In this document: in pieces, positions 1,931 to 27,212 of the stretch
Position numbering within the stretch: the stretch's first letter is position 1
Layout: each line of letters opens with the position of its first letter
Assembly (NCBI GenBank): GCA_964620365.1
Contig: CAZUIH010000002.1
Coordinates: forward strand, 1,598 to 65,597
From: an uncultured Desulfobacterales bacterium
GTDB lineage: Bacteria > Desulfobacterota > Dissulfuribacteria > Dissulfuribacterales > S140-46
Length of the DNA stretch: 64,000 bases
Direction: 5' to 3'
Notes under the pieces: model-generated
The model's input: the letters and a program-made list of their open reading frames with translations, nothing else
What the model was told of the DNA's origin: nothing
Database searches by the model: none
Program-made: the position numbers and the translations under genes

Positions 1931-3064
1931 CTAGCGGCACATCGATTCTTTTCCCTTCTCGGTTTGTTTACCTTTCAACAATTCTATAAAGGCGTTGTCT
2001 GGTACAATGGCCTCTTCATTTTCGTTTTTTGAGAGCCGGCTTGTCTCCCTTTTCTTTTTTGCCCTTTCCACGGCCCTTAAAAATGGATTTGTTTCCACTG
2101 CCTTGGCGCGCATCTTCTGGTCAGCGTGAGAGACCTCATTGTACACCTTCTTTCTCGTCTCGGCGATTTTTTGCAACGCCTCCTGGTCGACTGGTAATGA
2201 AGAATCAAGGAGCACCTGCCTGGTATCAAAAGATACGATTTTGCCGGTGCCATCCAGTGTCAGTTCTGCGACTCCAATGGATTTTCCCTTGGGCAGGGTC
2301 CGAAGAAGGTACACATCACCTATTTTCATGGACTTGTAATAACTGCTGCCAGGCCCCCCGCTTATTATCAAGTCAATTTCCTTTTCCTTGTAGGCCATAC
2401 GCTTGTCCAGATTTTCCCCAAGATTTGACAGGACCACAACGAGGTCGGCCTTTTTTCTCAGCTCAGGAAGGACCCTGTGCAATCCATCCATTGGTTCCGT
2501 TACTTCCAGGCCTTGGGCACGATATGGTCCTGAAGTAAGGGCCGTCAGACCAATGGTCACCCCATCAACGTCTATTGTCACATATTTTTTGAAGGCCTTT
2601 TGTGACCCTGACTTGATGTTTGCAGACAGAAAAACAAGCTTTCTCTTTGCGGCCTCTGCCTCCAAAAAGCCTGGTGACGCAAGGTCCCTCCTCCCGATAC
2701 CGGCCACTGCGTAGCCCATCTCATCGTAGAACTGGAGCATAAGCCTTGCGGTGTCGACCTCCCTGGCAGAATGAATGTTGTAAGATTTGAAGAGGAAATC
2801 CCCTGCCTCTACAAGAAGTGAGCTTCCATCTTTCTTCACGTTGTCTCGGATCCACCTGATCCGCCGGGCAATGCCTCCGATTTCCTTACCCTTTCACGTA
2901 GAACAGGGCCTGAGATAGCCCCACGTGTTACCAGTAAAATAAATCGTAATTTTTTTCTGATCTTTGGTATTGGCTAAGGCTGGAGAAACAATCAAGGCAA
3001 TGGAAAAAACGACAAAAACAAAGACCGCGTATGGCCTGAACGAAACACTTTTTGTCAAAAACAT
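1931..3064 (-). CDS. periplasmic degenerate metallophosphoesterase/5'-nucleotidase-like protein, candidate selenoprotein (UGA codon 57, C-x-x-U)
   Basis: The track ORF 1931..2839 continues upstream in the same frame for 75 codons. That reaches ATG 3064, which has an AAAGAGGT SD and encodes signal peptide MFLTKSVSFRPYAVFVFVVFSIALIVSPALA. The only interruption is TGA at 2896..2894, in the context YLRPCST-U-KGKEIGGIARR. Confidence 0.6.
2847..2863 (-). other. candidate SECIS-like hairpin for the 1931..3064 gene
   Basis: mRNA sense CGGAUC-AGGUG-GAUCCG: a perfect 6 bp stem with a 5 nt GGU-containing loop. The stem starts 30 nt after the UGA. Confidence 0.4.
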
Positions 3065-3173
3065 GCGATACCTCTTTCTGGCAAGGTTATGAATTTAAAA
3101 CAAACAATTGAAGTACAAGAAGTAGGACTACTTCATGCCTCCCGCCTCGCATCTTCGGCGAACTAACCGACTC

Positions 3174-3186
3174 TATAATCCGGTGG
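3174..3186. repeat. solo copy of the family-1 terminal 12-mer (TATAATCCGGTGG)
   Basis: Matches the ATAATCCGGGTT end of the repeat family with 2 mismatches. It lies about 110 nt upstream of ATG 3064. Confidence 0.35.
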
Positions 3187-3223
3187 CAATCTTTGACCAT
3201 CCTGGAGATTCCCTAAAGACGAT

Positions 3224-3844
3224 TTAATCATCGGCGGTTCCCCGAGTCTGATCTTCCTTTTTAATCAATTCCCTCATCCACCACGCAGCCCAGTGTTCAT
3301 CGAGAATGGCATCGGCCAAGGCCTTGGCCTCTTTTGTAACGAGCCTGGCCTTCACATGGGGAATCCACATCTTTGCGTCCGTGCTGCCGGTATCAAGATG
3401 TTCTTTTAAAGACAGCAGCATGTCCAGCTGGTCGCAGTCCCTCGCGATCCTGGCCTCAACAGACTCTCCCGACTCGAATTCCTCCAGCAGATCCACAATC
3501 TCTTCTCCACCGGGCAACCCCTTGGTCATATCAAGGGAAGCCTTTTTCTCATCTCTCGTCACGTATCGTTTGTGAACGGCATTGGCATCGCCTGTCCTCG
3601 CCTCGGGCAGATCATGCACAAGGCAGAGTTTTAGAAGGCGCTCGACATCCACTTCTTCGTCAAATTCTTTGGCTAGCGTCATGGCTATCAGCATCATCCC
3701 AAACGTATGGGCGGCAACAGACTCCCGGCCCTGACCCAAAAAGGCATATCCCGTGCGCCAGACCCTTTTGAGCATGGAACCCTCAAATAAAAAGCTGGCC
3801 ATTCTCTTAAGCTTTCTCTTACTCATTTTCCCAGGCATTCCCAA
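3224..3844 (-). CDS. HD-domain phosphohydrolase (YfbR-like 5'-deoxynucleotidase family)
   Basis: HD motif in CLVHDLPEARTGD, with the upstream H in VAAHTFGM. The length is typical of the family. Confidence 0.75.
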   Translation of the reverse strand: MGMPGKMSKRKLKRMASFLFEGSMLKRVWRTGYAFLGQGRESVAAHTFGMMLIAMTLAKEFDEEVDVERLLKLCLVHDLPEARTGDANAVHKRYVTRDEKKASLDMTKGLPGGEEIVDLLEEFESGESVEARIARDCDQLDMLLSLKEHLDTGSTDAKMWIPHVKARLVTKEAKALADAILDEHWAAWWMRELIKKEDQTRGTADD

Positions 3845-3876
3845 AACACAAAATTTGACAAGTATTATTTACCACG

Positions 3877-5025
3877 TCAATTCCTTATAAGAGCTCTCAT
3901 GATGAGTCTTTCCAAAAGAATCCTGTCAGCAGTTGGACTGCCTTTTAATCCTATATCCACTTCACATATCAAAGCGAGGGAATCGAGGAGTTCATCAATC
4001 TCAAAGGCATGGGCCTTCTGGGCGAGCTTGTAAATTCCGTAGGGCTTCATCTTTTGCAATGTGGAAGGCATGGGCGTCCCCCACGACTCCTTCATCCGAG
4101 GCAGTATCTCCCTTTGAAAGGAAGAAAATGCGCAGGAAAGCTGCCTTTCTCCTGAATAGACCTGAAAAAGGGCCGACTTTATCAGTATCAACCGCCTAAA
4201 AAAATTTGCAAGGGCCTGAAGTATTGCCAACGGATGAATCCCCTGGGATAACAGCAGATCAAGGCTTTCAAGGGACCGTGCCAGATCTCTTGCCCCCATC
4301 GCCTCGGTCAAGGAATACAACGCTTCAGACCGCTTCCTCACCACCAGACTCTGCACATCCTTAACCCTGATAAGTTTGCTCGAGGCAGAAAGGTCCACCA
4401 GCTTCTGCACCTCGGTTTTTAGCCCGTAAAGATCATCACTGCCGACCTGGTCAATGAGCATTTCAAGGGCCTTGGGCTCTATACGCATACCACCCTGCTC
4501 GACCCAGTTCTTGACCATATGCCTGACCGACAGTTCATGATCCCTGTTACCCGCGCCGTGAAAAAACGTCTCCAACACCCTACCAACCCTGGTTATTTCC
4601 TTGAAAAGCCTGCTACGCCTGTCTACGGAGGCCGTTTCTATCACAAGGACGGACCACTCAGGATCAGCCCTGTGACCCAACCAGGAAAGAAAAGGATCTG
4701 ATGATTCATCCTGATTATGAGATTTTTTTTCACCCGACTGGAATGGTTTAAAGGCAGGCCGCTGCAAATAAACTACCCTTCTACCCGGGAAAAAGCTCCT
4801 GGTTTCAAGGGATTCCAGCACCCTCATGGGGTTGACCTCATCTCCCTCCACCTGTTCCAGGTTAAAACTCCTAGCTTGTTCCGGGACAAGTGCCTCGATC
4901 AGCCTATCTATCCCGGATCTCAAATCAGGAGAATGCCCCACAAAAAGATAGACCGGGTAGACCTTACCCTTTTTGACCTCTTTCAGGCACGCTTCCAGGT
5001 CCTTATGAAATTTATCAACGGCCAT
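3877..5025 (-). CDS. holA: DNA polymerase III subunit delta
   Basis: 382 aa. The N-terminus (KVYPVYLFVGHSPDL) and overall helical architecture are typical of HolA. Called from recalled family features only. Confidence 0.7.
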   Translation of the reverse strand: MAVDKFHKDLEACLKEVKKGKVYPVYLFVGHSPDLRSGIDRLIEALVPEQARSFNLEQVEGDEVNPMRVLESLETRSFFPGRRVVYLQRPAFKPFQSGEKKSHNQDESSDPFLSWLGHRADPEWSVLVIETASVDRRSRLFKEITRVGRVLETFFHGAGNRDHELSVRHMVKNWVEQGGMRIEPKALEMLIDQVGSDDLYGLKTEVQKLVDLSASSKLIRVKDVQSLVVRKRSEALYSLTEAMGARDLARSLESLDLLLSQGIHPLAILQALANFFRRLILIKSALFQVYSGERQLSCAFSSFQREILPRMKESWGTPMPSTLQKMKPYGIYKLAQKAHAFEIDELLDSLALICEVDIGLKGSPTADRILLERLIMRALIRN

Positions 5026-5139
5026 GCTGCTTCCTAAAAAGGACAGGAACCATTACAGTCGCGCTGGTGCTGGAACCCGCATCCAAGGCACATCATCTTC
5101 TCTTGCGTGAAGTGGAATCCGGCTCAGTCATGTGGCCAT

Positions 5140-5958
5140 TCAACCTCCTAGTTCCTTTGATCGTTCTGTGGCCAGTCTTACTCCATCCATTATGGCCGCC
5201 CTTAAACCACCCTTTTCCAGGCCGTAAAGGCCTGCTATGGTTGTACCACCGGGGCTTGTGACCATTGAGGTAAGCTCTGCCGGGTGTTTTCCGCTCTCTT
5301 TCAAAAGAATGGCAGAACCAAGCACTGTCTGTACGGCCAACTCCTGGGCGACAGGTCTTGGGAGCCCCTCCCTTACTCCGGCATCTATGAGCCCCTCGAT
5401 AAAGGTGAACACGTAAGCGGGCCCGCTTCCGCTAAGCCCTGTAACCGCATCCATAAGGCCCTCCGGGACCACGACTGCCGTGCCTACAGCCTCCAGTATC
5501 CCCTTTACCAATGCTATATCGTCTTCGCTCGCACATGTGCCTCCGCAGAGGGCAGCGGCGCCTGCCTGGACCAGGGCAGGCGTGTTGGGCATCACTCTAA
5601 CCACCCTTGAGCCTTCAGGAAGACCGTTTTCCAGCACCTTAGTCCCTATCCCCGCGGCTATGGATATGATCAGGTGCTCCTTTTTTATCGCGGGCGAAAT
5701 ATCCTCCAGGACAATGCTCATCACCTGGGGTTTCACCGCAAGGAGTATATAATCGGAATTGGCTATTACCTCCTTGTTACCAGAAAAGGTCTTTATACCG
5801 AAATTCTCCTCCAGGTAATCCCTCCGCTTGCCCGAAGGATCGGAGGCCAGGATCTGGTCCCTTGAAAAGACTCCCTTTGCGATAAGCCCCTTGATCAAGG
5901 CGGCAGCCATTTGGCCGCCTCCAATGAAACCAAGATTTCCCTTTATACTTTTCCCCAT
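5140..5958 (-). CDS. proC: pyrroline-5-carboxylate reductase
   Basis: Rossmann motif GFIGGGQMAAALIKG and C-terminal VTSPGGTT motif; 272 aa. Confidence 0.9.
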   Translation of the reverse strand: MGKSIKGNLGFIGGGQMAAALIKGLIAKGVFSRDQILASDPSGKRRDYLEENFGIKTFSGNKEVIANSDYILLAVKPQVMSIVLEDISPAIKKEHLIISIAAGIGTKVLENGLPEGSRVVRVMPNTPALVQAGAAALCGGTCASEDDIALVKGILEAVGTAVVVPEGLMDAVTGLSGSGPAYVFTFIEGLIDAGVREGLPRPVAQELAVQTVLGSAILLKESGKHPAELTSMVTSPGGTTIAGLYGLEKGGLRAAIMDGVRLATERSKELGG

Positions 5959-5981
5959 ATCTGCTCTCCAGCCTTTCTCAT

Positions 5982-6734
5982 TTAGCTTTCTGGTCGTACC
6001 ATGATTTTCTGGGCTAAACCAAGTCCAACGGCCAGCCTTGAACCCTTCACACTCAAAATCATAGGACCTGATTTATTCAATACCTCCACTTCGTCTCCGA
6101 CCACAAGGCCCATGTCCTGAAGCCTTCCGCGGACACTCTTTCCACCTGAGAAACTGACTATCTTGACCTTTTCACCTACCGCAGCCATGGACAGAGGCAT
6201 TGCTGAAACCTCTTTTTTCCTGCAACTCGAACAAAGTCCCAGCACAGTCAGCTTATGAAGTACAGGTTCAAATCCATGTTGCCTGGCAGCTCGCTTGGTC
6301 AACTCTCCGATATCGGATTCATTGAATTCCACAATCTTTCCACATCCTGTACAAAGCAGGTGATCATGATCACCTCCAAGATGAAGGTGCTCATACCAGG
6401 CCCCTGATCCGTTCAGCTGAGTCCGTTGCGCGATACCGTATCGGCAAAGGACCTCAAGGACGTCCCTGACCGTATCCAGGTCCACGGAATGACCGGCCTC
6501 AGCAAGCTTTTCCTGTATGAACTCAGGGGAAATATGCCCTTCGATGCCCAAAAAACAGTCAAGCACCAAATTACCATTTTCAGGCAAGACCTCGCCCGTC
6601 TGAGCCAACAACCTGTGAAAATCGTCCTTTTCCCGCTGATGAAGAGAATCAACTTCATCTTGGGTGCATGAGATGTCAACTGACTCACTCCCCTTACAAC
6701 AATCGTTCTCTTTTTTTCTCCTTCGGAACCACAT
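5982..6734 (-). CDS. Fur-family regulator fused to a C-terminal FeoA domain
   Basis: Fur-type metal and Zn sites (HLHLGGDHDHLLCTGCGKIVEF, GLCSSCRKK). These are followed by a FeoA-like SH3 segment (VGEKVKIVSFSGGKSVRGRLQDMGLVVGDEVEVLNKSGPMILSVKGSRLAVGLGLAQKIMV). Confidence 0.75.
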   Translation of the reverse strand: MWFRRRKKENDCCKGSESVDISCTQDEVDSLHQREKDDFHRLLAQTGEVLPENGNLVLDCFLGIEGHISPEFIQEKLAEAGHSVDLDTVRDVLEVLCRYGIAQRTQLNGSGAWYEHLHLGGDHDHLLCTGCGKIVEFNESDIGELTKRAARQHGFEPVLHKLTVLGLCSSCRKKEVSAMPLSMAAVGEKVKIVSFSGGKSVRGRLQDMGLVVGDEVEVLNKSGPMILSVKGSRLAVGLGLAQKIMVRPES

Positions 6735-6956
6735 GAGTATAAATCAATCTCCTGTTCACATCTATTTTTGATGGCATTAAAATTTTACTTATTTCTTTTA
6801 CCAGGTCCGCTCCCTTTTGGTTAGGGGCATAATCCTGACACAAAGGGACGAATCTATCGGGATATACTAAACTTATTGAGACAAAATTACAACAATCACC
6901 ACACATCACCATATCTTTTCCCGAATTAATACAATTACCGGAAATCCCGAAAATTC

Positions 6957-7027
6957 AACCGGGATTACGCACTTAACATGCTGCAGAAATTATTTTTTAA
7001 TAAAACAAGCGAGTAAATGATAGAGGA
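6957..7027. repeat. family-1 repeat, copy D (left end plus internal block; right end missing)
   Basis: AACCGGGATTACGCACTTAAC, then TTATTTTTTAATAAAACAAGCGAGTAAATGATAGAG. The latter aligns with the internal block of copy C. Confidence 0.6.
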
Positions 7028-7077
7028 TCTTTAAAAATTAGATTTTTTTGTTCAACAACAAGGCGAAACGAAACGCT

Positions 7078-8097
7078 TCAGGGCAATGTTATAAGTACTT
7101 CCGTACCCCTTTCAGCCATACATTCCACGGATATGGAGCCATTATGCGCGTCTATTATCTTTTTTACTATGGGTAGCCCCAACCCCGTCCCACCCTGTTT
7201 GGATGAAAAATATGGATCGAAACAGTGCTCGTAGGTTTCCTGGTCCATGCCAGGCCCGTTGTCTTTGACGCGGATCAATGCCTTTCCTTCATCCTTGTGC
7301 AGGGACACCTCAATATCCTGATTAGGTTTCGAGGCATCTATGGCATTGGAGACAATATTGACAATAGCCCTTTCCAGAAGAAAGGAGTCAACTTCCTTAT
7401 ATACGTCGTTTATATCAGCTACCACCTTGACTGATGCTTCTTTCGCCTTCTGCCTACACGAAATAATAGCCTGGCACATTACTTCGGAAAGGTTTACCAG
7501 CCTCTTTCTGGGTCTCGCCTGCCTGGCAAAATCCAGGACATCATAGACAATTCTCTCCATTTTATAGGCATCTTTTAACATGACAGGGATATAAATCTCC
7601 GATTTGCCTTTTCCCTGGGCCAATTTTTCTAAAAGTCCTATGGTCGAGTTAAGAGGGTTTTTCAGGTCATGTACGATTCCCGAGGTAATCCTGCCTAGCG
7701 ATATTATAAACTTGTTTCTTTCCAGCTCTTCCCTCATCTTCTTTTCTTTATCAATTATGTAGCCAGAAAATACTGCAAAAATAAAGAGGAACAAAATCTC
7801 TGCGATCATGCGCAGCTCATTTAGGAAGGCTCCCCCCCAATTTTTCAAAATAAAGGGAAAATAAACAATGGTTATAATCCCACATACAATAAGGCTTCCC
7901 CTTAGCCCAAACCTCAAGGCCCCGTAAAAGACAGGGAAAAAATATAACTCCCTGTAAAAATCATGGAGTTCTCTGGGCCACGTTGTAAAATAAAGAGGCA
8001 AAGACACACTGGCGATAAGCCCAGCCAGTAACGCAACATGGACATATTTATTTTTCATATTTTTAGCCTGCCAAGGATCAACAAACAAATGTCCCAA
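7078..8097 (-). CDS. membrane sensor histidine kinase
   Basis: Multi-TM N-terminus, H-box IVHDLKNPLN, N/G boxes NAIDAS, DNGPGM, GTGLGL. No adjacent response regulator. Confidence 0.85.
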   Translation of the reverse strand: MGHLFVDPWQAKNMKNKYVHVALLAGLIASVSLPLYFTTWPRELHDFYRELYFFPVFYGALRFGLRGSLIVCGIITIVYFPFILKNWGGAFLNELRMIAEILFLFIFAVFSGYIIDKEKKMREELERNKFIISLGRITSGIVHDLKNPLNSTIGLLEKLAQGKGKSEIYIPVMLKDAYKMERIVYDVLDFARQARPRKRLVNLSEVMCQAIISCRQKAKEASVKVVADINDVYKEVDSFLLERAIVNIVSNAIDASKPNQDIEVSLHKDEGKALIRVKDNGPGMDQETYEHCFDPYFSSKQGGTGLGLPIVKKIIDAHNGSISVECMAERGTEVLITLP

Positions 8098-8198
8098 TCA
8101 AATACTCAGCCAGCCGGAAGGCCTACTTTGAAGGCATGGCAATAAAAAGGACCTGCTTCAGGAAATATCTAAGAATACAATTCTTCCAAGGGGGTTTT

Positions 8199-8353
8199 AA
8201 CCCGAATTACGCACTTCAACTATCCAAGGAATATTTTTTCTTATTAAAATCATTAAATTAACAGCAGGTTTTCTGTGAAAAATCTTCACCCAAAAGGTGC
8301 AACAAGTTATGTCCGGATTTCCTTGCAAACTTATCAACTGCATAATCCGGGTT
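8199..8353. repeat. family-1 repeat, copy A (155 bp)
   Basis: Left end AACCCGAATTACGCACTTCAAC, right end ATAATCCGGGTT. These form inverted termini. Confidence 0.65.
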
Positions 8354-8623
8354 TTCAATCCACTGCTAATCCAGCTTCGTGTGTAACCGATCCCCAAAAT
8401 TTTATTTGGGCACGATTGCTTGTTTAATTACTCGTGTTATCTCAATAGGTTATCCTATAATAAGCATTTTGTGGTTACACGTCAAAATTTCCACGCAAAT
8501 ATTTTTCTAAGGCATTGCTGAACCAACCAAAACACTAAGCAAACGTATTTTTTTTATTCTCCATTATTTTCATTATAAAGTCAAAAAGATTAAAACCGCC
8601 CGGATCACGCTGGGAGAGCTGAT

Positions 8624-9472
8624 CTATCCGAGCAGGTCCCTCAATACCGCGAGATTTCTGACGTCATCAGCAAGATCTTTTCCTTTCGGGGTCTCCAGGA
8701 TCATGGGATGCCTTTTGAAACGCGGATCGGTTAAAATAAACCTGAAACCATCAAGGCCAATTTCACCGGCTCCGATGTGTTCGTGTCTATCAATCTTTGA
8801 TCCGAGGGCCCTTTTTGAATCATTGAGATGGAAAACCTTCAACTTGTCCAATCCAATAATTTCTTCAAAAAGGCCCATGGTCTCCTGATAACTTTCTTCT
8901 GTGCGAAGGTCATAGCCCGCGGCAAAAACATGACAGGTATCAAAACAGATTCCATACCTGTCCGGAAGCTCCACATGTTCAAGAATGAACTCCAGCTCTT
9001 CAAACCTTGAGCCTACACCCGTACCCTGTCCCGCAGTAGTCTCCAGCAATATCATCACATCGCCAGCTCCATCAGCCAACTCCATGGCCATATCAAGCCC
9101 GGAAACTATCCGCGAAAGACCTTGCTCAACACCACTGCCAAGATGGGAACCCGGATGAATGATCAGATAGGGTATATCCAGTCGATGGACGCGGAGAAGC
9201 TCATCCGCCATTGCCAAAACAGATCTTTTAAAGTTTGAATCATCCCTGGAAGCCAGATTTATAAGGTAGGAACAATGCGCAGCTACAATATATCCCCATT
9301 GTCTAACAGCCCTTTTAAAGGACTCTTCCTCTTCTTTTGACATCTCAGGTGTGTGCCACTGCCTCTGGTTCTTTGTGAATATCTGCAAAGACCTTCCATC
9401 CACATGCCTGATCCTGGAAATGGCGTTGACAAGACCGCCTGCTATGGACATATGCGCGCCTAAAAACGGCAT
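8624..9472 (-). CDS. nfo: endonuclease IV (deoxyribonuclease IV)
   Basis: N-terminus LGAHMSIAGG; motifs LLETTAGQG and CFDTCH typical of AP endonuclease family 2; 282 aa. Confidence 0.9.
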   Translation of the reverse strand: MPFLGAHMSIAGGLVNAISRIRHVDGRSLQIFTKNQRQWHTPEMSKEEEESFKRAVRQWGYIVAAHCSYLINLASRDDSNFKRSVLAMADELLRVHRLDIPYLIIHPGSHLGSGVEQGLSRIVSGLDMAMELADGAGDVMILLETTAGQGTGVGSRFEELEFILEHVELPDRYGICFDTCHVFAAGYDLRTEESYQETMGLFEEIIGLDKLKVFHLNDSKRALGSKIDRHEHIGAGEIGLDGFRFILTDPRFKRHPMILETPKGKDLADDVRNLAVLRDLLG

Positions 9473-9546
9473 GACACCATCTCGTATAATCGGAGTACTC
9501 TTGCACTCAAGACATGAAAAAACAGTGCATGATCCGGGATTATCGC

Positions 9547-10287
9547 TTACCTGTCTTGATACTTATTTTCAAAGTATGGACACAGTTCCATCCTGCAACC
9601 GTGGGGATGACGCTCTATGTGTCTGCAAGACGAAATGTTGGTCGAACCACCCAGATACAACCCAAAATTGGCCGCAAAAAATTTTACAGCCTCGTCAATG
9701 GCACTCCTCACATAAGCCTTACAGCAACTAGGCCCGGTAAGTTCCTTTATCGCCAGAGCCACAGAACATGCCATGTCCATGGCAAGATACTGTTCTTCAT
9801 TACTGCCACACTTAGAAGAAAGGATAACAGCCACACAGGCCCCCATGGCCACCACTATGCCGCAAACTCCCGTAAGGCCGCAATATCCGCTTATTGCCTG
9901 CCTTTGGATGCGGTCAAAAACCTCTTCCATGTGCGAATCACGCACTCTTATTGTACCTTCATTTTTTAGGGCCGCAATTAATGAACCCGCCGCGATATAC
10001 GCATGGTGGCACCCAAGCATTGGCAGAGAAGGAATGTTAATGAGATATTCAGAGATCTCAAACGGGTCAGCAGAATCAGATGCAAGGCAATATTCCCTTA
10101 TTACTCGCAGGGACTCTTTATTGTGACAATTTTCACACAAGAAATGTCCATTGGGACAGACCACATGGCCTGATTCTACCCTGCCACACCTGGTACACCT
10201 GTACTCGTGACCATATTCCAGGTAAGTAAGCGGGCTGCCACAGACCATGCAGTTATCCACTACCGCCATCCTGCCTGGCACTTTCAA
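9547..10287 (-). CDS. Cys-rich conserved hypothetical protein with N-terminal zinc ribbon (possibly DUF5714-like)
   Basis: CMVCGSPL...CTRCG...CPNGHFLCENC ribbon, followed by a Cys-rich helical body. The family name is from memory only. Confidence 0.45.
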   Translation of the reverse strand: MKVPGRMAVVDNCMVCGSPLTYLEYGHEYRCTRCGRVESGHVVCPNGHFLCENCHNKESLRVIREYCLASDSADPFEISEYLINIPSLPMLGCHHAYIAAGSLIAALKNEGTIRVRDSHMEEVFDRIQRQAISGYCGLTGVCGIVVAMGACVAVILSSKCGSNEEQYLAMDMACSVALAIKELTGPSCCKAYVRSAIDEAVKFFAANFGLYLGGSTNISSCRHIERHPHGCRMELCPYFENKYQDR

Positions 10288-10402
10288 GTCGTCTGGCTGG
10301 CCCAGCCTCTTTTTCTCATTGTTTCAGCAACCGGTCCGCCGCCTGTCAGGTTTCAAATTTAGAGACATCCTTTTTTGCATTTTTATAACCCGCACTTTTC
10401 AT

Positions 10403-11590
10403 TCAGAAGCCCGCAGCTACCTGGAAGGTCAAGATCAGGTGATCCTGGACAGGAAAGGGGCTACTTTTCTCTTCTTCCTGGTCCACGTAGGTTAAATCAA
10501 CACTAAGCTTGTTTGCCTGGCCCTTCAGGAAATAATTGACTCCAAGGCCGTAGATGTTAGTTGAATCCTTGTTATCGACACCTATACGTTCATAGTGTAT
10601 GAAAGGCTGTACACGCCCTACCCCAACCTTTCCAGGCAAGATATATCCTGATTTTACAGAAACGATGTCTGCGTCATCCCCTTGTTTTAAATTCGTATAA
10701 TTAAGAGAATTGGGGCCACTGTTGACGTTTATGTATGCCGCTTCCATTGTTATGGCACCGCCACTTGGATCCAAGGGATAATCCCAGTGTACATCAACGG
10801 TCCAAGCGGAATAATCATGTCTCGACCCGTCATAAACAAGGTCATTCTGCATATCGAAGCCCATTCCAAGGGCCAGCACCCGCTTTTTACCTAGATAGGT
10901 GCCTTTATTGAACCAGGAGGTCTCTGGCTCGAAAAAGGACCAGCTCAGGCGCCCGGCGTATCTTGGATTGTCGTCTGGATTCATGGTATCCTTATCTATA
11001 CCCTTGGCCACCATGAAACGGTATTGCAGTCTCTTGCCCAGCACGTTCCCCCAGAGGCAAACGCCATCGTCTCTACCAACCTTGCTGGGATAGAAAATAC
11101 CGCCCCTGATACCGCCCTGGCTCCAGTCAAGGTCAGTTGCCAGAAGACTTTTTGTCGACGTGGTACCGTAATTCCTTGTGATCGGCACATACATCCGTCC
11201 CAGTTGTAGCATAGCTGACTCATCCAAAAGCCTGACGGTAACCCAGCCGTCCCTCAATATGAGATTGGCCCCAAGCCCCAGGCTTGGCCTGTCATGCAGC
11301 TCATCCTGGTCCAACCTGTCCCCCGCGACGTGGAGAAAAAAATCAAGCCATGGAGTCGCAGAGGCCTTGGCGTAAAAATAGGCCCGCCTGATCATGGTAT
11401 CATACAGGGCTGTTTCTTGTTTTCCGTCGCCGTCACGGTCCTTGGCATCTTCGACATATTGGTACCAGGCCTGCCCCCAGAACCCCATTTCCAACGAAAG
11501 ATCGCCGTTTTTATAGATCTTAGTGGCCCATGCGTGGTCCGTACAGACAACAACCATAAATAAGAGTGTGACCCAAAACCGTATTTTCAT
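10403..11590 (-). CDS. outer-membrane beta-barrel porin
   Basis: ATG 11590 follows GGAGTGGAGGGAAG. Signal peptide MKIRFWVTLLFMVVVCTDHAWA, alternating beta-strand pattern, and C-terminal ...FQVAAGF ending in Phe. The track start at 11608 is probably too long. Confidence 0.6.
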   Translation of the reverse strand: MKIRFWVTLLFMVVVCTDHAWATKIYKNGDLSLEMGFWGQAWYQYVEDAKDRDGDGKQETALYDTMIRRAYFYAKASATPWLDFFLHVAGDRLDQDELHDRPSLGLGANLILRDGWVTVRLLDESAMLQLGRMYVPITRNYGTTSTKSLLATDLDWSQGGIRGGIFYPSKVGRDDGVCLWGNVLGKRLQYRFMVAKGIDKDTMNPDDNPRYAGRLSWSFFEPETSWFNKGTYLGKKRVLALGMGFDMQNDLVYDGSRHDYSAWTVDVHWDYPLDPSGGAITMEAAYINVNSGPNSLNYTNLKQGDDADIVSVKSGYILPGKVGVGRVQPFIHYERIGVDNKDSTNIYGLGVNYFLKGQANKLSVDLTYVDQEEEKSSPFPVQDHLILTFQVAAGF

Positions 11591-11633
11591 ATCTTCCCTC
11601 CACTCCATCCCAGAGCGGTTACCTCACCGCATC

Positions 11634-11969
11634 CTAATCAGGAATGGGCTCTGCCCCGTGCCTTATGACCGCCTTTAACATCTCATCTTCTGAGGCAACA
11701 CCATTTCCCGCACCCTTGTCTACGGCTATAATTTCATCGTCCACCTTCACGGCAGGCGAAGCGGGATCCTTCGGGCCCATGAGATCCTGGGGAGTGACAA
11801 TAAGCCTGACGCCGGTTACCTGTTCCAGAACGCTTACAGCGGCCTCAAGGTTTCGGGCTCACCGTCCTCCCATTGGAGACCTCGTATACAGCTTTAGATC
11901 AACAGCCTGGGCGGAGATGGTAATTAACAGAACCATCAAAAAAACAGTGAACGCTAAAAAATTTCTCAT
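11634..11969 (-). CDS. secreted thioredoxin-fold protein (MTH895/TM0996-like), candidate selenoprotein (UGA codon 37)
   Basis: ATG 11969 sits 8 nt after AAGGAGGT. Signal peptide MRNFLAFTVFLMVLLITISAQA. TGA at 11861..11859 in SPMGGR-U-ARNLEAAV. The frame then stays open for 74 more codons, including a cis-Pro-like PASPAVKVDDEII and VASEDEMLKAV as in glutaredoxin-like MTH895 proteins. Not present in the ORF track. Confidence 0.55.
11812..11828 (-). other. candidate SECIS-like hairpin for the 11634..11969 gene
   Basis: mRNA sense CUGG-AACAGGUAA-CCGG (4 bp stem including one G.U). It starts 30 nt after the UGA, the same spacing as the 2863..2847 hairpin. Confidence 0.3.
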
Positions 11970-12017
11970 AATAGATACCTCCTTGTTATTAGATAATTTC
12001 ATTAACCAACTACCTTT

Positions 12018-12141
12018 GACCCGATTTATACACTTCAATCACCGAATCTCATGCGTATTCGGCCAGTTGAAAAACCAAGCCACACGGACATGCCCACGGA
12101 CTCAAATCCTAGGCAGTCCTGGCACAGGCATAATCCGGGTT
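12018..12141. repeat. family-1 repeat, copy B (124 bp, internally replaced)
   Basis: Left end GACCCGATTTATACACTTCAATC, right end ATAATCCGGGTT. Carries an internal CCGAAT/ATTCGG hairpin. Ends 49 nt upstream of ATG 11969. Confidence 0.6.
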
Positions 12142-12296
12142 CACATCTGTATGGTTTTAAAAACCAGGCTGTAAACATGCCGACGACCAAAAGGTGACCT
12201 CCAAAAAGCTAAATCTTAGAGGTCCCAATAAGAGACAACACCCAAAGAGCGTCATCGAAAATCCACCTGTGGTCAGGATCGAAGCAGTAGACATAT

Positions 12297-12737
12297 TCAA
12301 TTGTCTCCGCTTCTTTTGAGTAAAAAATGGACACTCTCTTCAGGCAACTTCAGCTGCCTTGCGATTTCCGTAGTCGAGGCACCTGGATTTTCCTTGATAA
12401 AATGTTCACACTCGGCTCGCACCATATCCAGCCAATCCTGGAACAAGACCACAAGTTCCTCCGAGGTTTCGGACGAAAGCTCATGGAGTATTCCCATTGC
12501 CCCGTAAAGATGATGACACATGTTTTGTGGATCGACACCTTCATCCATGCATTTGGCAATTCAGAGCTGAACCATACTGCCGATCTTGTCTTTTCCTGTT
12601 TGCCCCACCATCTCCACTACAAAGCTTCTTTTTTCTTCTTCAGAAAGAATGGAAAAGATCTCTTTGGCCAGATGGAGTAATAGATCCTTGCCCTCTTCCA
12701 AGGTCAATGACCTGATAATGTCACCCCATTTATCCAT
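12297..12737 (-). CDS. small helical protein with C-terminal HTH-like segment, candidate selenoprotein (UGA codon 59, U-x-x-x-C)
   Basis: ATG 12737 overlaps the arsR stop (TAATG). The frame is identical to track ORF 12297..12548 (189 nt = 63 codons upstream). The single TGA is at 12563..12561, in GSMVQL-U-IAKCMDEG. There is no SD in front of the internal ATG 12548. Confidence 0.5.
12528..12547 (-). other. candidate SECIS-like hairpin for the 12297..12737 gene
   Basis: mRNA sense UGGAU-GA-AGGUG-UCG-AUCCA: 5 bp outer stem plus 2 inner pairs, with an AGGUG apical loop. The stem starts 13 nt after the UGA and GGU lies about 22 nt after it. Confidence 0.4.
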
Positions 12738-13111
12738 TATTCCTCTCCTTTCGTTTGCTCTTGCTCCTGGATTATTCTCTTCACTTCAGCCACGAGAGCT
12801 GATTCGTCCAGGTCTGGATTTATTTCAGCGACCGCCCTTCCAAGAAATTTCAAAAGTCCTTTTGAGGCCAACCGGTAGTAGATAAATGGTCCTCTTCGTT
12901 CACTGACCAAGATATTCGCGTACCTGAATTCCTTTAGATGATGAGACACAAGGGGCTGAGACAATCCAAGACGATTGACTATCTCTGTCACAGAAAGAAA
13001 ACCACATTTCTCCAACGCGATACAAAGGATAATTTTTAATCGATTTTCATCGGATAGCGACTTGAAAAAATGCGCAAGCTCCTTGATAACGATTTTATTT
13101 GACCAGCCCAT
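12737..13111 (-). CDS. ArsR/SmtB-family transcriptional regulator
   Basis: wHTH segment LSVTEIVNRLGLSQPLVSHHLKEFRYANILVSERRGPFIYYRL; 124 aa. Confidence 0.85.
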   Translation of the reverse strand: MGWSNKIVIKELAHFFKSLSDENRLKIILCIALEKCGFLSVTEIVNRLGLSQPLVSHHLKEFRYANILVSERRGPFIYYRLASKGLLKFLGRAVAEINPDLDESALVAEVKRIIQEQEQTKGEE

Positions 13112-24888: not shown

Positions 24889-26655
24889 ATGTCTTTTGAT
24901 TGGTTACCAAAACCTAAAGGAATTGGAATCAGGATACTGCTTCCCACCGTCTTCTTCTTTATTGCCGGCACCGTATCTATGCTGGCTTTGCATTACTGGG
25001 CAATGAAAAATTTAGCCGATGCCAACAATGTTGAGCAGGCGGATATGCTTCTTGACTCCGTTCGCGCAGCTATCAACAAGCCCATGACAGAAGGAGATGA
25101 CAAGGCTATCCGCCACATTGTCGAAGATCTCAGGAAGTACGCGGACGTCTTCCTGATTGACAATAAGGGTGTAGTCACCTATGCGCCCTCACCTGAAATG
25201 TCGGGGAAAAACATTTGGTCCCTTGTGGATACCACGCTTAAAGAACAGGGGAACCTGGCCCTCCAGGGCAAAGGTTCCTTTGAAGAACCTATAATAAAGG
25301 TCTTAAAGAATGGGGATGAAGGCCATATTTTAGGTTTTGAGGCAATAAAAAATGAAGCATCATGTCAACACTGCCACGGGAAGAAAAGAAAGATATTGGG
25401 CGCAATCATAGTAAGGCATGACATATCGGACATAGTTCAAATCGAGAAAAAGAGTAACTATCTGTTCATGGGAATCGCAGTGGGGGCATTGGCCATAGTA
25501 ATTCCGACATTAATATTGATCCTCAATATCGTCGCCATCCGCCCAATAAGAGAACTTGCCCTCAGAATGAAAAATCTCTCTACAGGAGAAGCCGATTTAA
25601 CCCAGAAGCTGGATGTCAAAGCCATTGACTGTGCAGGAATAATGAAATGCAATGCACCAGAATGCCCGAGCTATGGCAAAGAGTCACATTGCTGGCAGGA
25701 AGTGGGAAGTTTCTCCCAAGAGACACGCTGCGTTAAGCTCCAAAGCGGCGAACACAAAAGTTGTGAAGATTGTATAGTCTTTGAGGAGGCAATCAAGACA
25801 GAGGTGGACGAGGTATCCACATTTTTCAATGCATTTATCTGCCGAGTTAGAGACCTGATCGCAAAGGTCATGAAAAATGCGGAACAATTAAGTGTTGAAG
25901 CAATTCAGGTAAAAAAAGAGGCAGAACACATGGAAAACCTGGCGGAAGAAGCACGATCTGAATCCAGGGAGGTGACACAGTCGGCTGAAAATACCAATCA
26001 TATGGTTGCTGGTGTCGCTGCCGCCATGGAGGAGATGACTGCCACCATTTCTGAAATCGCGCAAAACACCGACGAGGCGCGACGAGTAGCCCTGGAGGCA
26101 AATCAAGAGGCACAAAACGCACGTGATGTCATAGAAAGTCTGTTAAAATCCGCATCAAAAATAGGGGAAGTAAGCAAACTAATAGGTTCAATCGCAGAAC
26201 AGACCAATCTACTCGCCCTGAACGCCACCATAGAAGCTGCCCGTGCGGGTGAAGCGGGCAAGGGTTTTGCCGTCGTAGCCAACGAAGTGAAAGAATTGGC
26301 ATCACAAACAGGCGAATCAGTCACTGAAATTGATGAAATAGTATCCACACTTCAAAACGAAGCAAAACGCGCCACAGAAGCGGTGCAACACATAGTAGAG
26401 GTTATCCAAAGGGAGGCTGAACTTTCCGATAGCGTGGCGGTAGCCGTGGAGGAGCAGACTGCCACTACAAACGAAATCAGCAGTAATGCCCAAAACGCGA
26501 GCCAGGAAGTATCTCAAATGGCAGAAAAGAGTCAGACCATTTACCAAGCAAGCTCCAATAACCTGGAGGGGGCGCAAAAGGCCAGAGAGGCGGCAGATCG
26601 CCTGGAAAAGCTCTTTCAGGAACTGAAATGCCTTTTACAGGAATTCAAAATATAA
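24889..26655 (+). CDS. methyl-accepting chemotaxis protein with a periplasmic haem c motif and a cytoplasmic Cys-rich module
   Basis: Two TM segments. CQHCH lies in the periplasmic domain. Signalling hairpin [35 protein letters not shown]. Cys-rich insert [23 protein letters not shown]...C...C..C. Confidence 0.9.
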
Positions 26656-26659
26656 CGAC

Positions 26660-26695
26660 AAAAAGGGCGTGCGGATTTCACACGCCCTTTTTTAT
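26660..26695. terminator. bidirectional rho-independent terminator (MCP / rubrerythrin)
   Basis: AAAAAGGGCGTG-CGGATTTCA-CACGCCCTTTTTT, with A/T runs on both sides. Confidence 0.8.
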
Positions 26696-26696
26696 A

Positions 26697-27212
26697 TCAC
26701 TCTATCTCTACAAATTTAGAACCGGGAGTTGAGCATACCCTGCATTTTTCCGGTGCATTCCCTTCAACCGTGTAACCACATACCGGACATACCAAAATAT
26801 CCCCGGCCGGGGCATCCATTCCTTCCTTAACGTACATCAAGGCACGCTCGAAAAGGGCCGCATGCACCTTCTCGGCTTCATTGGCATAAAAGAAAGATGT
26901 GTGGGCATCTTTGTCTCCCTCTTTTCTGGCTACTTCCAACATGTCAGGATACATGGTCTTAAACTCATAGCTCTCACCATGTATGGCTGCCAGGACGTTC
27001 TCCTCCGTAGTTTTAATCCCACCCATGGCCTTTAATTGATTAAGGGCGTGTACTGTTTCCGCCTTGGCGGCCGCCCTAAACATCTTACCGATCTGGCAAA
27101 ATCCATCGTCATCGGCCTTTTCTGCAAAAGCAAGGTATCTCCTGTTGGCCTGAGATTCTCCAGCAAAGGCATCTTCCAACATTTCCTTTGATTTGCTCAT
27201 AGAGCCCTCCAT
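26697..27212 (-). CDS. rubrerythrin
   Basis: Ferritin-like di-iron region (ESQANRRYLAFA, EKVHAALF) plus a C-terminal rubredoxin-like CPVCG...CRVC. Confidence 0.9.
   Translation of the reverse strand: MEGSMSKSKEMLEDAFAGESQANRRYLAFAEKADDDGFCQIGKMFRAAAKAETVHALNQLKAMGGIKTTEENVLAAIHGESYEFKTMYPDMLEVARKEGDKDAHTSFFYANEAEKVHAALFERALMYVKEGMDAPAGDILVCPVCGYTVEGNAPEKCRVCSTPGSKFVEIE

What the first reader, a model, noticed from the sequence alone, without database searches (positions are those of the whole stretch)
2847..12563. Three UGA-interrupted genes within about 10 kb share GGU-containing apical loops downstream of the UGA
All three candidate recoding sites are followed by a hairpin whose loop contains (A)GGU:
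- UGA-N30-CGGAUC[AGGUG]GAUCCG
- UGA-N30-CUGG[AACAGGUAA]CCGG
- UGA-N13-UGGAU(GA)[AGGUG](UCG)AUCCA

Two have the identical 30 nt spacing, and two have the identical AGGUG loop flanked by GGAU/AUCC.

In the E. coli fdhF SECIS as I recall it, the apical loop is GGUC, starting about 19 nt after the UGA. The three sites therefore resemble bacterial SECIS elements. The +37 position of two of them is at the long end of the expected range.

TGA is still a normal stop elsewhere in the window (for example proC and rubrerythrin). This is therefore local recoding rather than a reassigned genetic code.
Basis: seen in the sequence. Interest (0 to 1): 0.65.

Follow-up and report, generated by a model that had tools for sequence, protein, structure and literature searches.

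The report
Three selenoprotein genes with SECIS hairpins
Three genes in this stretch use an in-frame UGA to insert selenocysteine, as known selenoprotein families in sulfate-reducing bacteria do; two of the three proposed RNA hairpin signals hold up, and the third is probably a different hairpin closer to the UGA.

Summary
All three UGA-interrupted genes are real, and all lie on the minus strand. Each is best read as a selenoprotein gene.

- **Gene 1** (1931-3064) is an UshA-like periplasmic protein with a CxxU motif.
- **Gene 3** (12297-12737) is TsoA-like, with LUIAKC.
- **Gene 2** (11634-11969) is a small secreted protein with PxGxxU, distantly TsoC-like.

In genes 1 and 2 the UGA aligns with Cys in homologues. 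In all three, diverged orthologues (12, 3 and 1) keep an in-frame TGA at the same position. TGA ends about half of the ordinary genes, so the code is not reassigned.

- **Site 1 hairpin:** CGGAUC[AGGUG]GAUCCG, loop 36 nt after the UGA, pairs in 98.7% of cells across 13 sequences. Its stem codons are fixed at synonymous sites.
- **Site 3 hairpin:** it carries the same GGAU..AGGUG..AUCC motif. That motif occurs only at these two places in the window, and one orthologue keeps it.
- **Site 2 hairpin:** CGC[UGUAA]GCG at +20 is the better candidate.

Folding energy alone does not separate these sites from ordinary TGAs. No Rfam family matches. This is a new member of known kinds and of modest interest.

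The parts
1931..3064 (-). Gene 1: UshA-like (5'-nucleotidase-fold) secreted selenoprotein, 377 aa, motif RPCST-U-KGKEIGGIARRIRWIR
   Evidence: Read-through translation. NCBIfam NF041198 UshA_like_PCGU scores 5.6e-45 (154 bits, cutoff 275) and NF049981 scores 90.5 bits (cutoff 140). Twelve orthologues carry TGA at the same column.
2894..2896 (-). Sec codon (UGA) of gene 1
   Evidence: It aligns with the second Cys of CxxC/CxC in P0007, P0008 and P0009.
2847..2863 (-). Site 1 SECIS hairpin CGGAUC[AGGUG]GAUCCG; the loop starts 36 nt after the UGA
   Evidence: It is the minimum-energy element, at -8.6 kcal/mol locally. Across 13 sequences 98.7% of cells are paired, against 14-67% in slid controls. 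Stem codons CGG and AUC are fixed while flanking Arg codons use four codons. Only 25 of 600 synonymous recodings fold as well.
11634..11969 (-). Gene 2: small secreted selenoprotein, 111 aa, signal peptide then LYTRSPMGGR-U-ARNLEAAV; distantly TsoC-like (PxGxxU)
   Evidence: Read-through translation. The exhaustive search found truncated orthologue calls and a Cys homologue, P0017. The P0017 N-domain weakly hits NF045708 TsoC (5.6e-4); gene 2 itself hits it at 0.011, away from the Sec site.
11859..11861 (-). Sec codon (UGA) of gene 2
   Evidence: It aligns with Cys38 of P0017 (NEPQSDRC), 41% identity over 110 aa. TGA sits at the same column in L006/L007, L008 and L012.
11827..11845 (-). Preferred site 2 SECIS candidate AGG-C-CGCU[GUA]AGCG-U-UCU (core CGC[UGUAA]GCG at 11831-11841); the loop starts 20-21 nt after the UGA
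   Evidence: It is the best rule-fitting hairpin in the window (-6.9), L006 (-6.7) and L008 (-8.0), at the same spacing in all three. It is the RNAalifold consensus of the four orthologues, with 91.7% of cells paired. The Ser codon AGC that forms two of its pairs is kept in 4 of 4. L012 has no such hairpin.
11812..11828 (-).
   Evidence: It is -3.8 kcal/mol and the loop starts AA. It is not in the minimum-energy fold. In orthologues 56% of cells are paired, the same as controls, and the two G-C pairs exist only in the window.
12297..12737 (-). Gene 3: TsoA-like selenoprotein, 146 aa, motif L-U-IAKC, with a helix-turn-helix-like C-terminus
   Evidence: NCBIfam NF045695 'LULAXC motif selenoprotein TsoA' scores 5.8e-36 (124 bits, cutoff 170). 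The N-terminal 68 aa alone align to profile positions 4-65, straight through the Sec position. Orthologue L004 is 65% identical.
12561..12563 (-). Sec codon (UGA) of gene 3
   Evidence: It lies at the U of the family motif LULAxC. L004 has an in-frame TGA at the same position.
12528..12547 (-). Site 3 SECIS hairpin UGGAUGA[AGGUG]UC(G)AUCCA; the loop starts 20 nt after the UGA
   Evidence: It is the minimum-energy fold of the first 40-45 nt but not of 50-67 nt. It is -4.3 kcal/mol in the window and -5.7 in L004, where a U-to-C change turns a U.G pair into C-G. It shares GGAU..AGGUG..AUCC with site 1, and those are the only two matches in the window.
12737..13111 (-). ArsR/SmtB regulator, TsoR-like, immediately upstream of gene 3
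   Evidence: NF045707 TsoR scores 3.2e-25 (88 bits, cutoff 115). L004 has the same pair, an ArsR-type gene followed by the TsoA-like gene.
10403..11608 (-). ExtI-like outer-membrane porin, immediately downstream of gene 2
   Evidence: NF040900 'selenite/tellurite reduction operon porin ExtI' scores 2.4e-39 (135 bits, cutoff 150).
9547..10287 (-). MbdU-like metal-binding protein, Cys form; it covers only the first half of the family profile
   Evidence: NF045648 scores 3e-100 (336 bits, cutoff 600), over profile positions 37-269 of 468.

Best explanation
The three UGAs are selenocysteine codons in three unrelated selenoprotein genes of a bacterium that has the Sec-decoding trait. It is probably a sulfate-reducing Desulfobacterota.

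**Proposed mechanism (inferred, not shown).** While the ribosome approaches each UGA, a hairpin in the coding sequence just downstream is bound at its apical loop by the elongation factor SelB carrying Sec-tRNASec. SelB then delivers Sec to the A site instead of release factor 2.

**The signals**
- **Site 1:** CGGAUC[AGGUG]GAUCCG, loop at +36.
- **Site 3:** UGGAUGA[AGGUG]UC(G)AUCCA, loop at +20.
- **Site 2:** most likely CGC[UGUAA]GCG, also readable as CGCU[GUA]AGCG, loop at +20/21.

**Shown here**
- The reading frames and the family relationships.
- Sec/Cys alignment in genes 1 and 2.
- Conservation of TGA in orthologues.
- Conservation of the site 1 hairpin at nucleotide level.

**Inferred**
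- SelB binding, actual Sec insertion, and which hairpin is used at site 2.

**The proteins**
- Gene 1 is an UshA-like secreted protein. Its usual metal-binding His motifs are replaced by a CxxU site.
- Genes 3 and 2 sit in a row: TsoR-like regulator, TsoA-like, TsoC-like, ExtI-like porin, MbdU-like.
- That row resembles the published 'three selenoprotein operon' neighbourhoods, and I infer a role in handling sulfur, selenium, tellurium or metals in the cell envelope.
For: **Frames and families**
- Read-through gives single proteins of 377, 111 and 146 aa.
- NCBIfam selenoprotein models hit gene 1 (NF041198 at 5.6e-45, NF049981) and gene 3 (TsoA at 5.8e-36).
- The TsoA alignment runs through the UGA.

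**Sec/Cys pairs**
- Gene 1 CSTU aligns with CGKC, CGC and CHC in P0007, P0008 and P0009.
- Gene 2 GGRU aligns with SDRC in P0017.

**TGA conserved in orthologues**
- Gene 1: L002, L003 and L014-L023, at 55-75% nucleotide identity between lineages.
- Gene 2: L006/7, L008 and L012.
- Gene 3: L004.

**Code not reassigned**
- 11 of the 25 ORFs of 300 aa or more end in TGA.

**Hairpin 1**
- 98.7% of cells are paired in 13 sequences.
- In-stem codons CGG (10% of Arg codons in this genome) and AUC are invariant. Of 12 other invariant-residue codons, 11 vary.
- The base pair at columns 33/51 shows U-A and C-G alternatives.
- Cys-form homologues lack the RWIR hairpin.

**Hairpin 3**
- It carries the same motif as hairpin 1, unique to these two sites in the window.
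- It is kept in L004 with a compatible change.

**Hairpin 2 (alternative)**
- It has the same position and is the top score in 3 of 4 orthologues.
- The Cys-form L024 has no rule-fitting hairpin there.

**Published consensus**
- Loop of 3-9 nt, G in the first two loop positions, spacing 16-37 nt (PMC13188914).
Against: - No Sec machinery (selA, selB, selC, selD) lies in the window, so the trait is inferred from the genes themselves.
- No Rfam hit, even at E of 10 or less.
- Fold z-scores are not significant.
- Hairpins 2 and 3 are no more stable than synonymous recodings of the same peptide: 238 of 600 and 408 of 600 recodings fold as well.
- They are also no more stable than hairpins after ordinary TGAs.
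- In my local folds they are weaker than the consensus -7.5 kcal/mol threshold (-6.9 and -4.3).
- There is no true compensatory covariation in the core of any stem.
- Gene 3 has only one orthologue and no Cys-form homologue was found.
- L012 keeps the TGA of gene 2 but has no good hairpin.
- All family scores are below NCBI's curated cutoffs.
- The 36-nt spacing at site 1 is about twice that in E. coli fdhF (from my own knowledge).
Confidence: 0.8

Rival explanations
1. All three are Sec sites, and at site 2 the first reader's hairpin CUGG[AACAGGUAA]CCGG (loop at +34) is the working SECIS in this organism. On this view all three share a GGU loop.
For: The hairpin exists. CAGGU is also present in L006, which has a -5.5 kcal/mol hairpin with loop GACAGG at +34. 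Sites 1 and 3 do have GGU in their loops.
Against: - The loop starts AA, against the consensus rule.
- It is -3.8 kcal/mol and absent from the minimum-energy fold.
- Its G-C pairs are unique to the window. 56% of cells are paired, the same as controls.
- GGU is absent at that place in L008 and L012.
Confidence: 0.12
2. The hairpins at sites 2 and 3 are by-products of the encoded peptides and of base composition. On this view Sec insertion there uses other or looser signals, and the real determinant is not identified.
For: - Synonymous recodings fold as well in 40% and 68% of trials.
- 16% and 36% of all TGAs have equal hairpins, and 9 of 26 true TGA stops have one at -4.3 or better.
- A Cys-form homologue of gene 1 has a -10.8 kcal/mol rule-fitting hairpin made by its GGLA codons.
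- L012 has no hairpin.
Against: - The site 3 motif GGAU..AGGUG..AUCC is found only at sites 1 and 3, and site 1 is well supported.
- The +20 hairpin of gene 2 is at the same position in three orthologues, and the AGC Ser codon is kept in 4 of 4.
- The Cys-form L024 lacks it.
Confidence: 0.2
3. The UGAs are true stops: pseudogenes, split genes or sequencing errors, with no recoding.
For: Public gene callers annotated only the pieces: P0001, P0003 and P0011, and the 58-aa and 83-aa ORFs in L004. L006/L007 carry frameshifts and L009-L011 are truncated copies.
Against: - TGA sits at the same column in 12, 3 and 1 diverged orthologues, with intact and conserved frames on both sides.
- The column holds Cys in homologues.
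- A search allowing TGC or TGT returned only TGA.
- The downstream pieces lack their own start codons near the UGA.
Confidence: 0.03
4. UGA is reassigned genome-wide to a standard amino acid such as Trp or Gly.
For: None beyond the in-frame TGAs themselves.
Against: - 11 of the 25 ORFs of 300 aa or more, and about half of all mapped genes, end in TGA at family-consistent lengths. These include proC, rubrerythrin, holA and D-aminoacyl-tRNA deacylase.
- Only three in-frame TGAs look coding in the 64 kb.
- The aligned residue in homologues is Cys.
Confidence: 0.01

Closest known systems
Bacterial SECIS element (consensus model of Zhang & Gladyshev 2005, as summarised in PMC13188914; prototype E. 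coli fdhF)
   Same: It is a hairpin inside the coding region just after an in-frame UGA. It has a small apical loop with G, followed by G or U, in the first two positions, and the loop lies 16-37 nt from the UGA. Sites 1 and 3 have GGU in the loop, as does the fdhF loop GGUC (the fdhF loop is from my own knowledge).
   Different: - At site 1 the loop is 36 nt from the UGA, near the upper limit and about twice the fdhF distance.
- The site 1 hairpin is almost invariant in sequence across lineages that are 55-75% identical. The review says bacterial SECIS elements usually do not resemble each other.
- Hairpins 2 and 3 are weaker than the model's -7.5 kcal/mol in my local folds.
- No Rfam model matches.
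UshA-like selenoproteins (COG0737 CxU family, GOS study PMC2398784; NCBIfam NF041198 'UshA_like_PCGU' and NF049981 'family 2', CxxU)
   Same: It is a secreted 5'-nucleotidase-fold protein. Sec lies in a Cys-x(1-2)-Sec motif near the N-terminus, where the classic enzymes have the NDxHG metal site. Cys-form homologues exist.
   Different: - Scores are below both curated cutoffs (154 against 275; 90.5 against 140).
- The motif is CSTU (CxxU), although the better-scoring model is the CxU family.
- This subfamily has the motif GGIARRxRWIR, which encodes the hairpin.
- Some members lack the partner Cys.
Tso 'three selenoprotein operon' (TsoR, TsoA, TsoB, TsoC; Haft & Tolstoy 2025, cited through PMC13188914; NCBIfam NF045707, NF045695, NF045694, NF045708)
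   Same: An ArsR-type regulator is followed by a LULAxC-type selenoprotein (here LUIAKC). Next comes a small PxGxxU selenoprotein. Other selenoprotein-family genes lie alongside.
   Different: - No TsoB (rhodanese/DsbD double selenoprotein) is in the window.
- All scores are below cutoff.
- Gene 2 matches TsoC only through the motif and through an intermediate, P0017.
- The neighbours here are an ExtI-like porin and a Cys-form MbdU-like protein.
- The original paper was not available to me.

Membership tests
Bacterial SECIS (consensus model, PMC13188914) | In-frame UGA inside a coding region, with the element immediately downstream | tested here: met
   All three sites meet this. Coding continuity is supported by orthologues and family models.
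Bacterial SECIS (consensus model, PMC13188914) | Apical loop of 3-9 nt on an upper stem of 4-16 bp | tested here: met
   - Site 1: 6 bp, 5-nt loop.
- Site 3: 7 bp with one bulge, 5-nt loop.
- Site 2 alternative: 3-4 bp core (7 bp with a 1x1 internal loop), 3-5-nt loop.

Bacterial SECIS (consensus model, PMC13188914) | G in one of the first two loop positions, usually followed by G or U | tested here: inconclusive
Met at site 1 (AGGUG), site 3 (AGGUG) and the site 2 alternative (GUA or UGUAA).
Bacterial SECIS (consensus model, PMC13188914) | 16-37 nt between the UGA and the apical loop | tested here: met
Bacterial SECIS (consensus model, PMC13188914) | Minimum free energy of -7.5 kcal/mol or lower | tested here: inconclusive
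The published threshold may apply to a longer structure than I folded.
Bacterial SECIS (consensus model, PMC13188914) | Conservation or covariation of the hairpin in orthologues | tested here: inconclusive
   - Site 1: strongly conserved, with fixed synonymous sites but no compensatory change in the core.
- Site 3: one orthologue, with one compatible change.
- Site 2 alternative: kept in 3 of 4.
Bacterial SECIS (consensus model, PMC13188914) | Bound by SelB and required for Sec insertion | not testable with these tools
   This needs binding or reporter assays. selB is not in the window.
Rfam SECIS families | Covariance-model score at or above the gathering threshold | tested here: not met
   There were no hits at gathering threshold. 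No SECIS-family hit appeared at E of 10 or less in the three 121-nt regions.
UshA-like selenoprotein (NF041198 / NF049981) | HMM score at or above the curated cutoff | tested here: not met
   The scores are 153.9 against 275 and 90.5 against 140. These are still the two best-scoring families.
UshA-like selenoprotein (NF041198 / NF049981) | Sec in a C-x(1-2)-U motif that aligns with Cys in homologues | tested here: met
   CSTU aligns with CGKC, CGC and CHC.
TsoA (NF045695) | LULAxC motif with Sec at the second position | tested here: met
   The motif here is L-U-I-A-K-C, with one conservative difference (I for L). The profile alignment spans it.
TsoA (NF045695) | HMM score at or above the curated cutoff | tested here: not met
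   The score is 124 bits against 170.
Tso operon | TsoR, TsoA, TsoB and TsoC encoded together | tested here: not met
   TsoR-like, TsoA-like and a distant TsoC-like gene are present. No TsoB-like gene (rhodanese/DsbD, two UGAs) is anywhere in the window.
TsoC (NF045708) | NEPxGxxU motif and HMM score at or above the cutoff | tested here: not met
   The motif is RSPMGGRU: PxGxxU is met, NE is not. The HMM gives 15.7 bits against 45, and the match lies away from the motif. The Cys homologue P0017 has NEPQSDRC and scores 19.8 bits over profile positions 3-77.

The most novel reading that the evidence does not exclude
Gene 2 and its relatives (L006, L008, L012 and the N-domain of P0017) could be a periplasmic selenoprotein family that no current model describes, only remotely tied to TsoC. 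It would work with rhodanese domains and an ExtI-type porin in a Tso variant without TsoB, moving sulfur, selenium or tellurium across the envelope. Separately, the UshA-like subfamily would carry an unusually distant (+36) SECIS that is nearly invariant across lineages. That RNA requirement would have fixed the peptide motif RxRWIR.
Probability: 0.3. Interest if true: 0.5.

Novelty: new member of a known kind. Interest (0 to 1): 0.3.

Why it matters
- **Annotation.** Public gene callers split all three genes into fragments. Reading them as selenoproteins restores three full-length proteins.
- **Biology.** The result adds diverged members to recently named families (UshA-like, TsoA, TsoC-like). 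It places two of them next to a porin type that has been linked to selenite and tellurite reduction.
- **Method.** The case shows that hairpin criteria alone cannot tell Sec codons from stops. True stops and a Cys-form gene pass the same filter. Orthologue comparison could tell them apart, and it changed which hairpin is favoured at one site.
- **Testable lead.** The site 1 hairpin is fixed in sequence across distant lineages and is strictly linked to TGA. That makes it a clean natural test case for how far from the UGA a bacterial SECIS can act.

Tried and rejected
- **Rfam.** The whole window at gathering threshold and the three sites at E of 10 or less gave nothing relevant.
- **Covariance model R1.** I built it from the site 1 hairpin family. 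It finds site 1 at 39 bits. The next hits are 13.6 bits or less and unrelated, and sites 2 and 3 are not found. A single shared model is therefore rejected.
- **Proximal hairpin in gene 1.** This is GGNG[GNAU]NGCC with its loop at +19. Its third pair is broken in 9 of 13 sequences, and a Cys-form homologue has the same kind of hairpin. I rejected it as a coding by-product.
- **Lower helix at site 1.** GGG after the UGA could pair with the CCC before the hairpin. 82.7% of cells are paired, with no covariation. It is left open.
- **Genome-collection scans.** The TsoA-like scan found nothing. The gene-1 alignment scan only refound L002. My C-for-U substitution entered one of the two search patterns, which may have limited that scan.
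- **Other scans.** The metagenome scan with the gene-2 alignment found nothing, and a viral-contig pattern scan found nothing.
- **Word-index homologue searches.** Genes 2 and 3 gave 0 and 2 hits.
- **Fourth Sec codon.** I tested extending the MbdU-like gene upstream through a TGC-TGA. The family profile does not support it.
- **Papers not held.** The two Haft papers that describe these families are not in the library.

Full report
**1. What is in the sequence**

All three sites are on the minus strand.

| Site | TGA | Gene | Length |
|---|---|---|---|
| 1 | 2894-2896 | 1931-3064 | 377 aa |
| 2 | 11859-11861 | 11634-11969 | 111 aa |
| 3 | 12561-12563 | 12297-12737 | 146 aa |

Reading through each TGA joins two open segments of the same frame. 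The spacings of 30, 30 and 13 nt before the stems are correct.

A scan of all six frames looked for other TGA-joined ORF pairs outside the mapped genes. It found no further convincing case.

**2. These are not ordinary stops and the code is not reassigned**

TGA ends 11 of the 25 ORFs of 300 aa or more, and about half of all mapped genes. Those proteins end where their families end.

*Gene 1*
- The UGA column holds the second Cys of a CxxC or CxC motif in full-length homologues: PCGKC in P0007, DCGC in P0008, CHC in P0009. A canonical 5'-nucleotidase (P0006) has its NDVHGH metal site there.
- Two orthologues reached through protein search, L002 (a Desulfobacteraceae MAG) and L003, have an in-frame TGA at the same codon.
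- I then scanned metagenome contigs with a codon-degenerate pattern, TGH-N15-GGIARRxRWIR, which allowed TGA, TGC or TGT. All 10 loci returned have TGA.
- Eight lineages in this set are only 55-75% identical at nucleotide level.

*Gene 2*
- An exhaustive HMMER search with the part after the UGA found truncated gene calls (P0012, P0014, P0016). It also found one full-length Cys homologue, P0017.
- P0017 aligns over 110 residues at 41% identity. Its Cys38 (NEPQSDRC) lies opposite the UGA (SPMGGRU).
- The DNA of L006/L007, L008 and L012 has TGA at that same column.

*Gene 3*
- The one orthologue found, L004 (65% identical), has the same TGA.
- NCBIfam's model for the 'LULAXC motif selenoprotein TsoA' aligns continuously across the UGA, here LUIAKC.

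Pseudogenes, sequencing errors and a reassigned code are therefore excluded with high confidence.

**3. What the genes are**

*Gene 1* has what looks by eye like a signal peptide. Its two best-scoring NCBIfam families are the two UshA-like selenoprotein models. Both scores are below the curated cutoffs: 154 against 275 and 90.5 against 140. UshA-like (COG0737) selenoproteins have been known since metagenome surveys (PMC2398784).

*Gene 3* hits TsoA (124 bits, cutoff 170). It follows an ArsR-type regulator whose best hit is TsoR. L004 has the same gene pair.

*Gene 2* has a signal peptide by eye and the motif PxGxxU.
- TsoC is defined by NEPxGxxU (PMC13188914).
- Gene 2 itself matches the TsoC model only weakly (E = 0.011), and away from the motif.
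- Its Cys homologue P0017 carries NEPQSDRC and matches TsoC over profile positions 3-77 (E = 5.6e-4). P0017 continues into two rhodanese domains that hit TsoB.
- I therefore call gene 2 distantly TsoC-like.

*Neighbours*
- Downstream of gene 2 come an ExtI-like porin (135 bits, cutoff 150) and an MbdU-like protein in Cys form.
- No TsoB is present in the window, and no Sec-machinery gene or tRNA-Sec.
- The L012 orthologue of gene 2 sits next to a rhodanese, c-type cytochromes and a molybdopterin oxidoreductase.
- L006 lies near an APS reductase.
- From these neighbours I infer, but have not shown, an envelope role in sulfur, selenium, tellurium or metal handling.
- Genes 1, 2 and 3 do not travel together in other loci.

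**4. The hairpins: thermodynamics**

Only the site 1 hairpin is part of the minimum-energy fold of the 67 nt after the UGA. Z-scores against dinucleotide shuffles are -1.1, +0.3 and -0.4.

I re-implemented the published consensus rules: loop of 3-9 nt, G in the first two loop positions, 16-37 nt spacing (PMC13188914). I scored the best local hairpin after each of the 2358 TGA triplets in the window.

| Site | Best rule-fitting hairpin | kcal/mol | Share of all TGAs that match or beat it |
|---|---|---|---|
| 1 | AGGUG loop at +36 | -8.6 | 8% |
| 3 | AGGUG loop at +20 | -4.3 | 36% |

- Among 26 genuine TGA stops, 9 have a hairpin of -4.3 or better. The rubrerythrin terminator scores -17.8.
- Recoding each peptide with this genome's codon usage gives an equal or better hairpin in 25 of 600 trials (site 1), 238 of 600 (site 2) and 408 of 600 (site 3).
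- On energy alone, only site 1 stands out.

**5. The hairpins: comparison with orthologues**

*Site 1*
- In 13 sequences the six pairs of CGG[A/G]UC...GAUCCG are formed in 98.7% of cells, against 14-67% when the partner is slid by 1-3 columns.
- The only variation in the core is A-U to G.U. The loop is [A/C]G[G/U]UG.
- Among the 14 codons in this region whose residue is invariant and that have synonymous alternatives, only three use a single codon in all 13 sequences:
  - the two that lie wholly in the stem, CGG and AUC;
  - the GCC just upstream.
- The Arg codon just before the stem uses four codons in the same sequences. So does the Arg codon whose third base lies just past the stem, among the eight lineages.
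- CGG is only 10% of Arg codons in this genome.
- The outermost possible pair (columns 33/51) shows G.U, G-C, U-A and C-G, but is broken in three sequences.
- Cys-form homologues lack the RWIR peptide and this hairpin.
- This is good evidence for selection on the RNA. It rests on conservation, not on compensatory change.

*Site 3*
- The hairpin is better drawn as seven pairs with one bulged base. It is the minimum-energy fold of the first 40-45 nt.
- It is kept in L004, where a synonymous U-to-C change turns a U.G pair into C-G and lowers the energy to -5.7.
- Its GGAU..AGGUG..AUCC core is shared with site 1. A pattern covering both matches nowhere else in the window (2 found, 0.03 expected).
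- The pattern was written after the fact. Even so, the chance of a second copy falling in the permitted window after another in-frame UGA is very small.

*Site 2*
Its two G-C pairs exist only in the window.
- RNAalifold instead returns CGC[NGUNA]GCG at columns 21-31, with 91.7% of cells paired.
- That hairpin is the top-scoring rule-fitting hairpin, at the same spacing, in the window, L006 and L008.
- The AGC Ser codon that supplies two of its pairs is kept in all four.
- The Cys-form L024 has no rule-fitting hairpin at all.
- L012 keeps the TGA but has no good hairpin, which remains unexplained.
- With four sequences this is a preference, not a proof.

**6. Models**

Rfam has no match. A covariance model built from the site 1 family finds only site 1 in the window. 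There is therefore no single sequence-plus-structure model shared by the three sites. What they share is the generic SECIS geometry, plus, for sites 1 and 3, the AGGUG core.

**7. Mechanism**

The best-supported account is ordinary bacterial Sec insertion. SelB with Sec-tRNASec binds the apical loop of a hairpin inside the coding sequence and decodes the upstream UGA (mechanism as reviewed in PMC13188914).

- Shown here: the frames, Sec/Cys pairing in genes 1 and 2, TGA conservation, and conservation of hairpin 1.
- Inferred: SelB binding, actual insertion, and the choice of hairpin at site 2.
- The 36-nt spacing at site 1 is within the published 16-37 range but near its limit.

**8. Comparison and novelty**

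These are new, diverged members of known kinds: bacterial SECIS elements, UshA-like selenoproteins, and TsoA/TsoC-type neighbourhoods. All are below NCBI's naming cutoffs. TsoB is missing, so I do not file the cluster as a canonical Tso operon.

A specialist would find the selenoprotein calls expected for this kind of organism. Three points are mildly interesting:
- the near-invariant, distant SECIS of the UshA-like subfamily;
- the weakly modelled gene-2 family;
- the porin and MbdU context.

Noticed in passing
window 10295-10326, minus strand: An in-frame TGA (10324-10326) directly follows a TGC ('..RRRTG-C-U-NNEKK..'), 39 nt upstream of the ATG of the MbdU-like gene. After 16 nt comes GGCUG[GGC]CAGCC (10295-10307). 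MbdU is a 'CU'-motif double selenoprotein family. The family profile does not extend over this upstream piece, so a fourth Sec codon is unsupported but not excluded.
   Followed up: partly
window 9547-10287, minus strand: The MbdU-like protein matches only profile positions 37-269 of 468. It contains a CC pair (PSCCKAY), which I guess, without an alignment, corresponds to the family's CU motif. It looks like a half-length Cys-form relative of a double selenoprotein.
   Followed up: partly
window 9547-13111, minus strand: A row of genes on one strand: TsoR-like regulator, TsoA-like, a 327-nt gap, TsoC-like, ExtI-like porin, MbdU-like. TsoB is absent from the whole window.
   Followed up: partly
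L009 1551-1784, L010, L011: These relatives of gene 2 have lost the signal peptide, the Sec codon and the first third of the protein through a deletion. The remnant ORF starts in unrelated sequence.
   Followed up: no
L006 2870-2985 and L007 340-445: The gene-2 orthologue has two apparent 1-nt frameshifts in homopolymer runs upstream of the TGA. One is a T run in the signal peptide; the other is GG where the window has GGG. They may be sequencing errors or a decaying gene.
   Followed up: no
L015, L017, L018, L021 (UshA-like orthologues): The Cys of the CxxU motif is replaced by Tyr (DPYxxU) or Val (AVHSU), while the TGA and the hairpin are kept. The partner Cys is therefore not essential in this subfamily.
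   Followed up: no
window about 26640-26699, minus strand: The true TGA stop of rubrerythrin is followed by a -17.8 kcal/mol hairpin whose loop starts with G, 17 nt downstream. It passes the simple SECIS rules but I take it to be a transcription terminator, from its position after the gene's stop.
   Followed up: no
L026 about 670-740 (Cys-form UshA-like homologue): The codons for GGLA form a -10.8 kcal/mol hairpin 19 nt after the TGC codon. The similar proximal hairpin in the Sec forms is therefore a by-product of coding, not a signal.
   Followed up: yes
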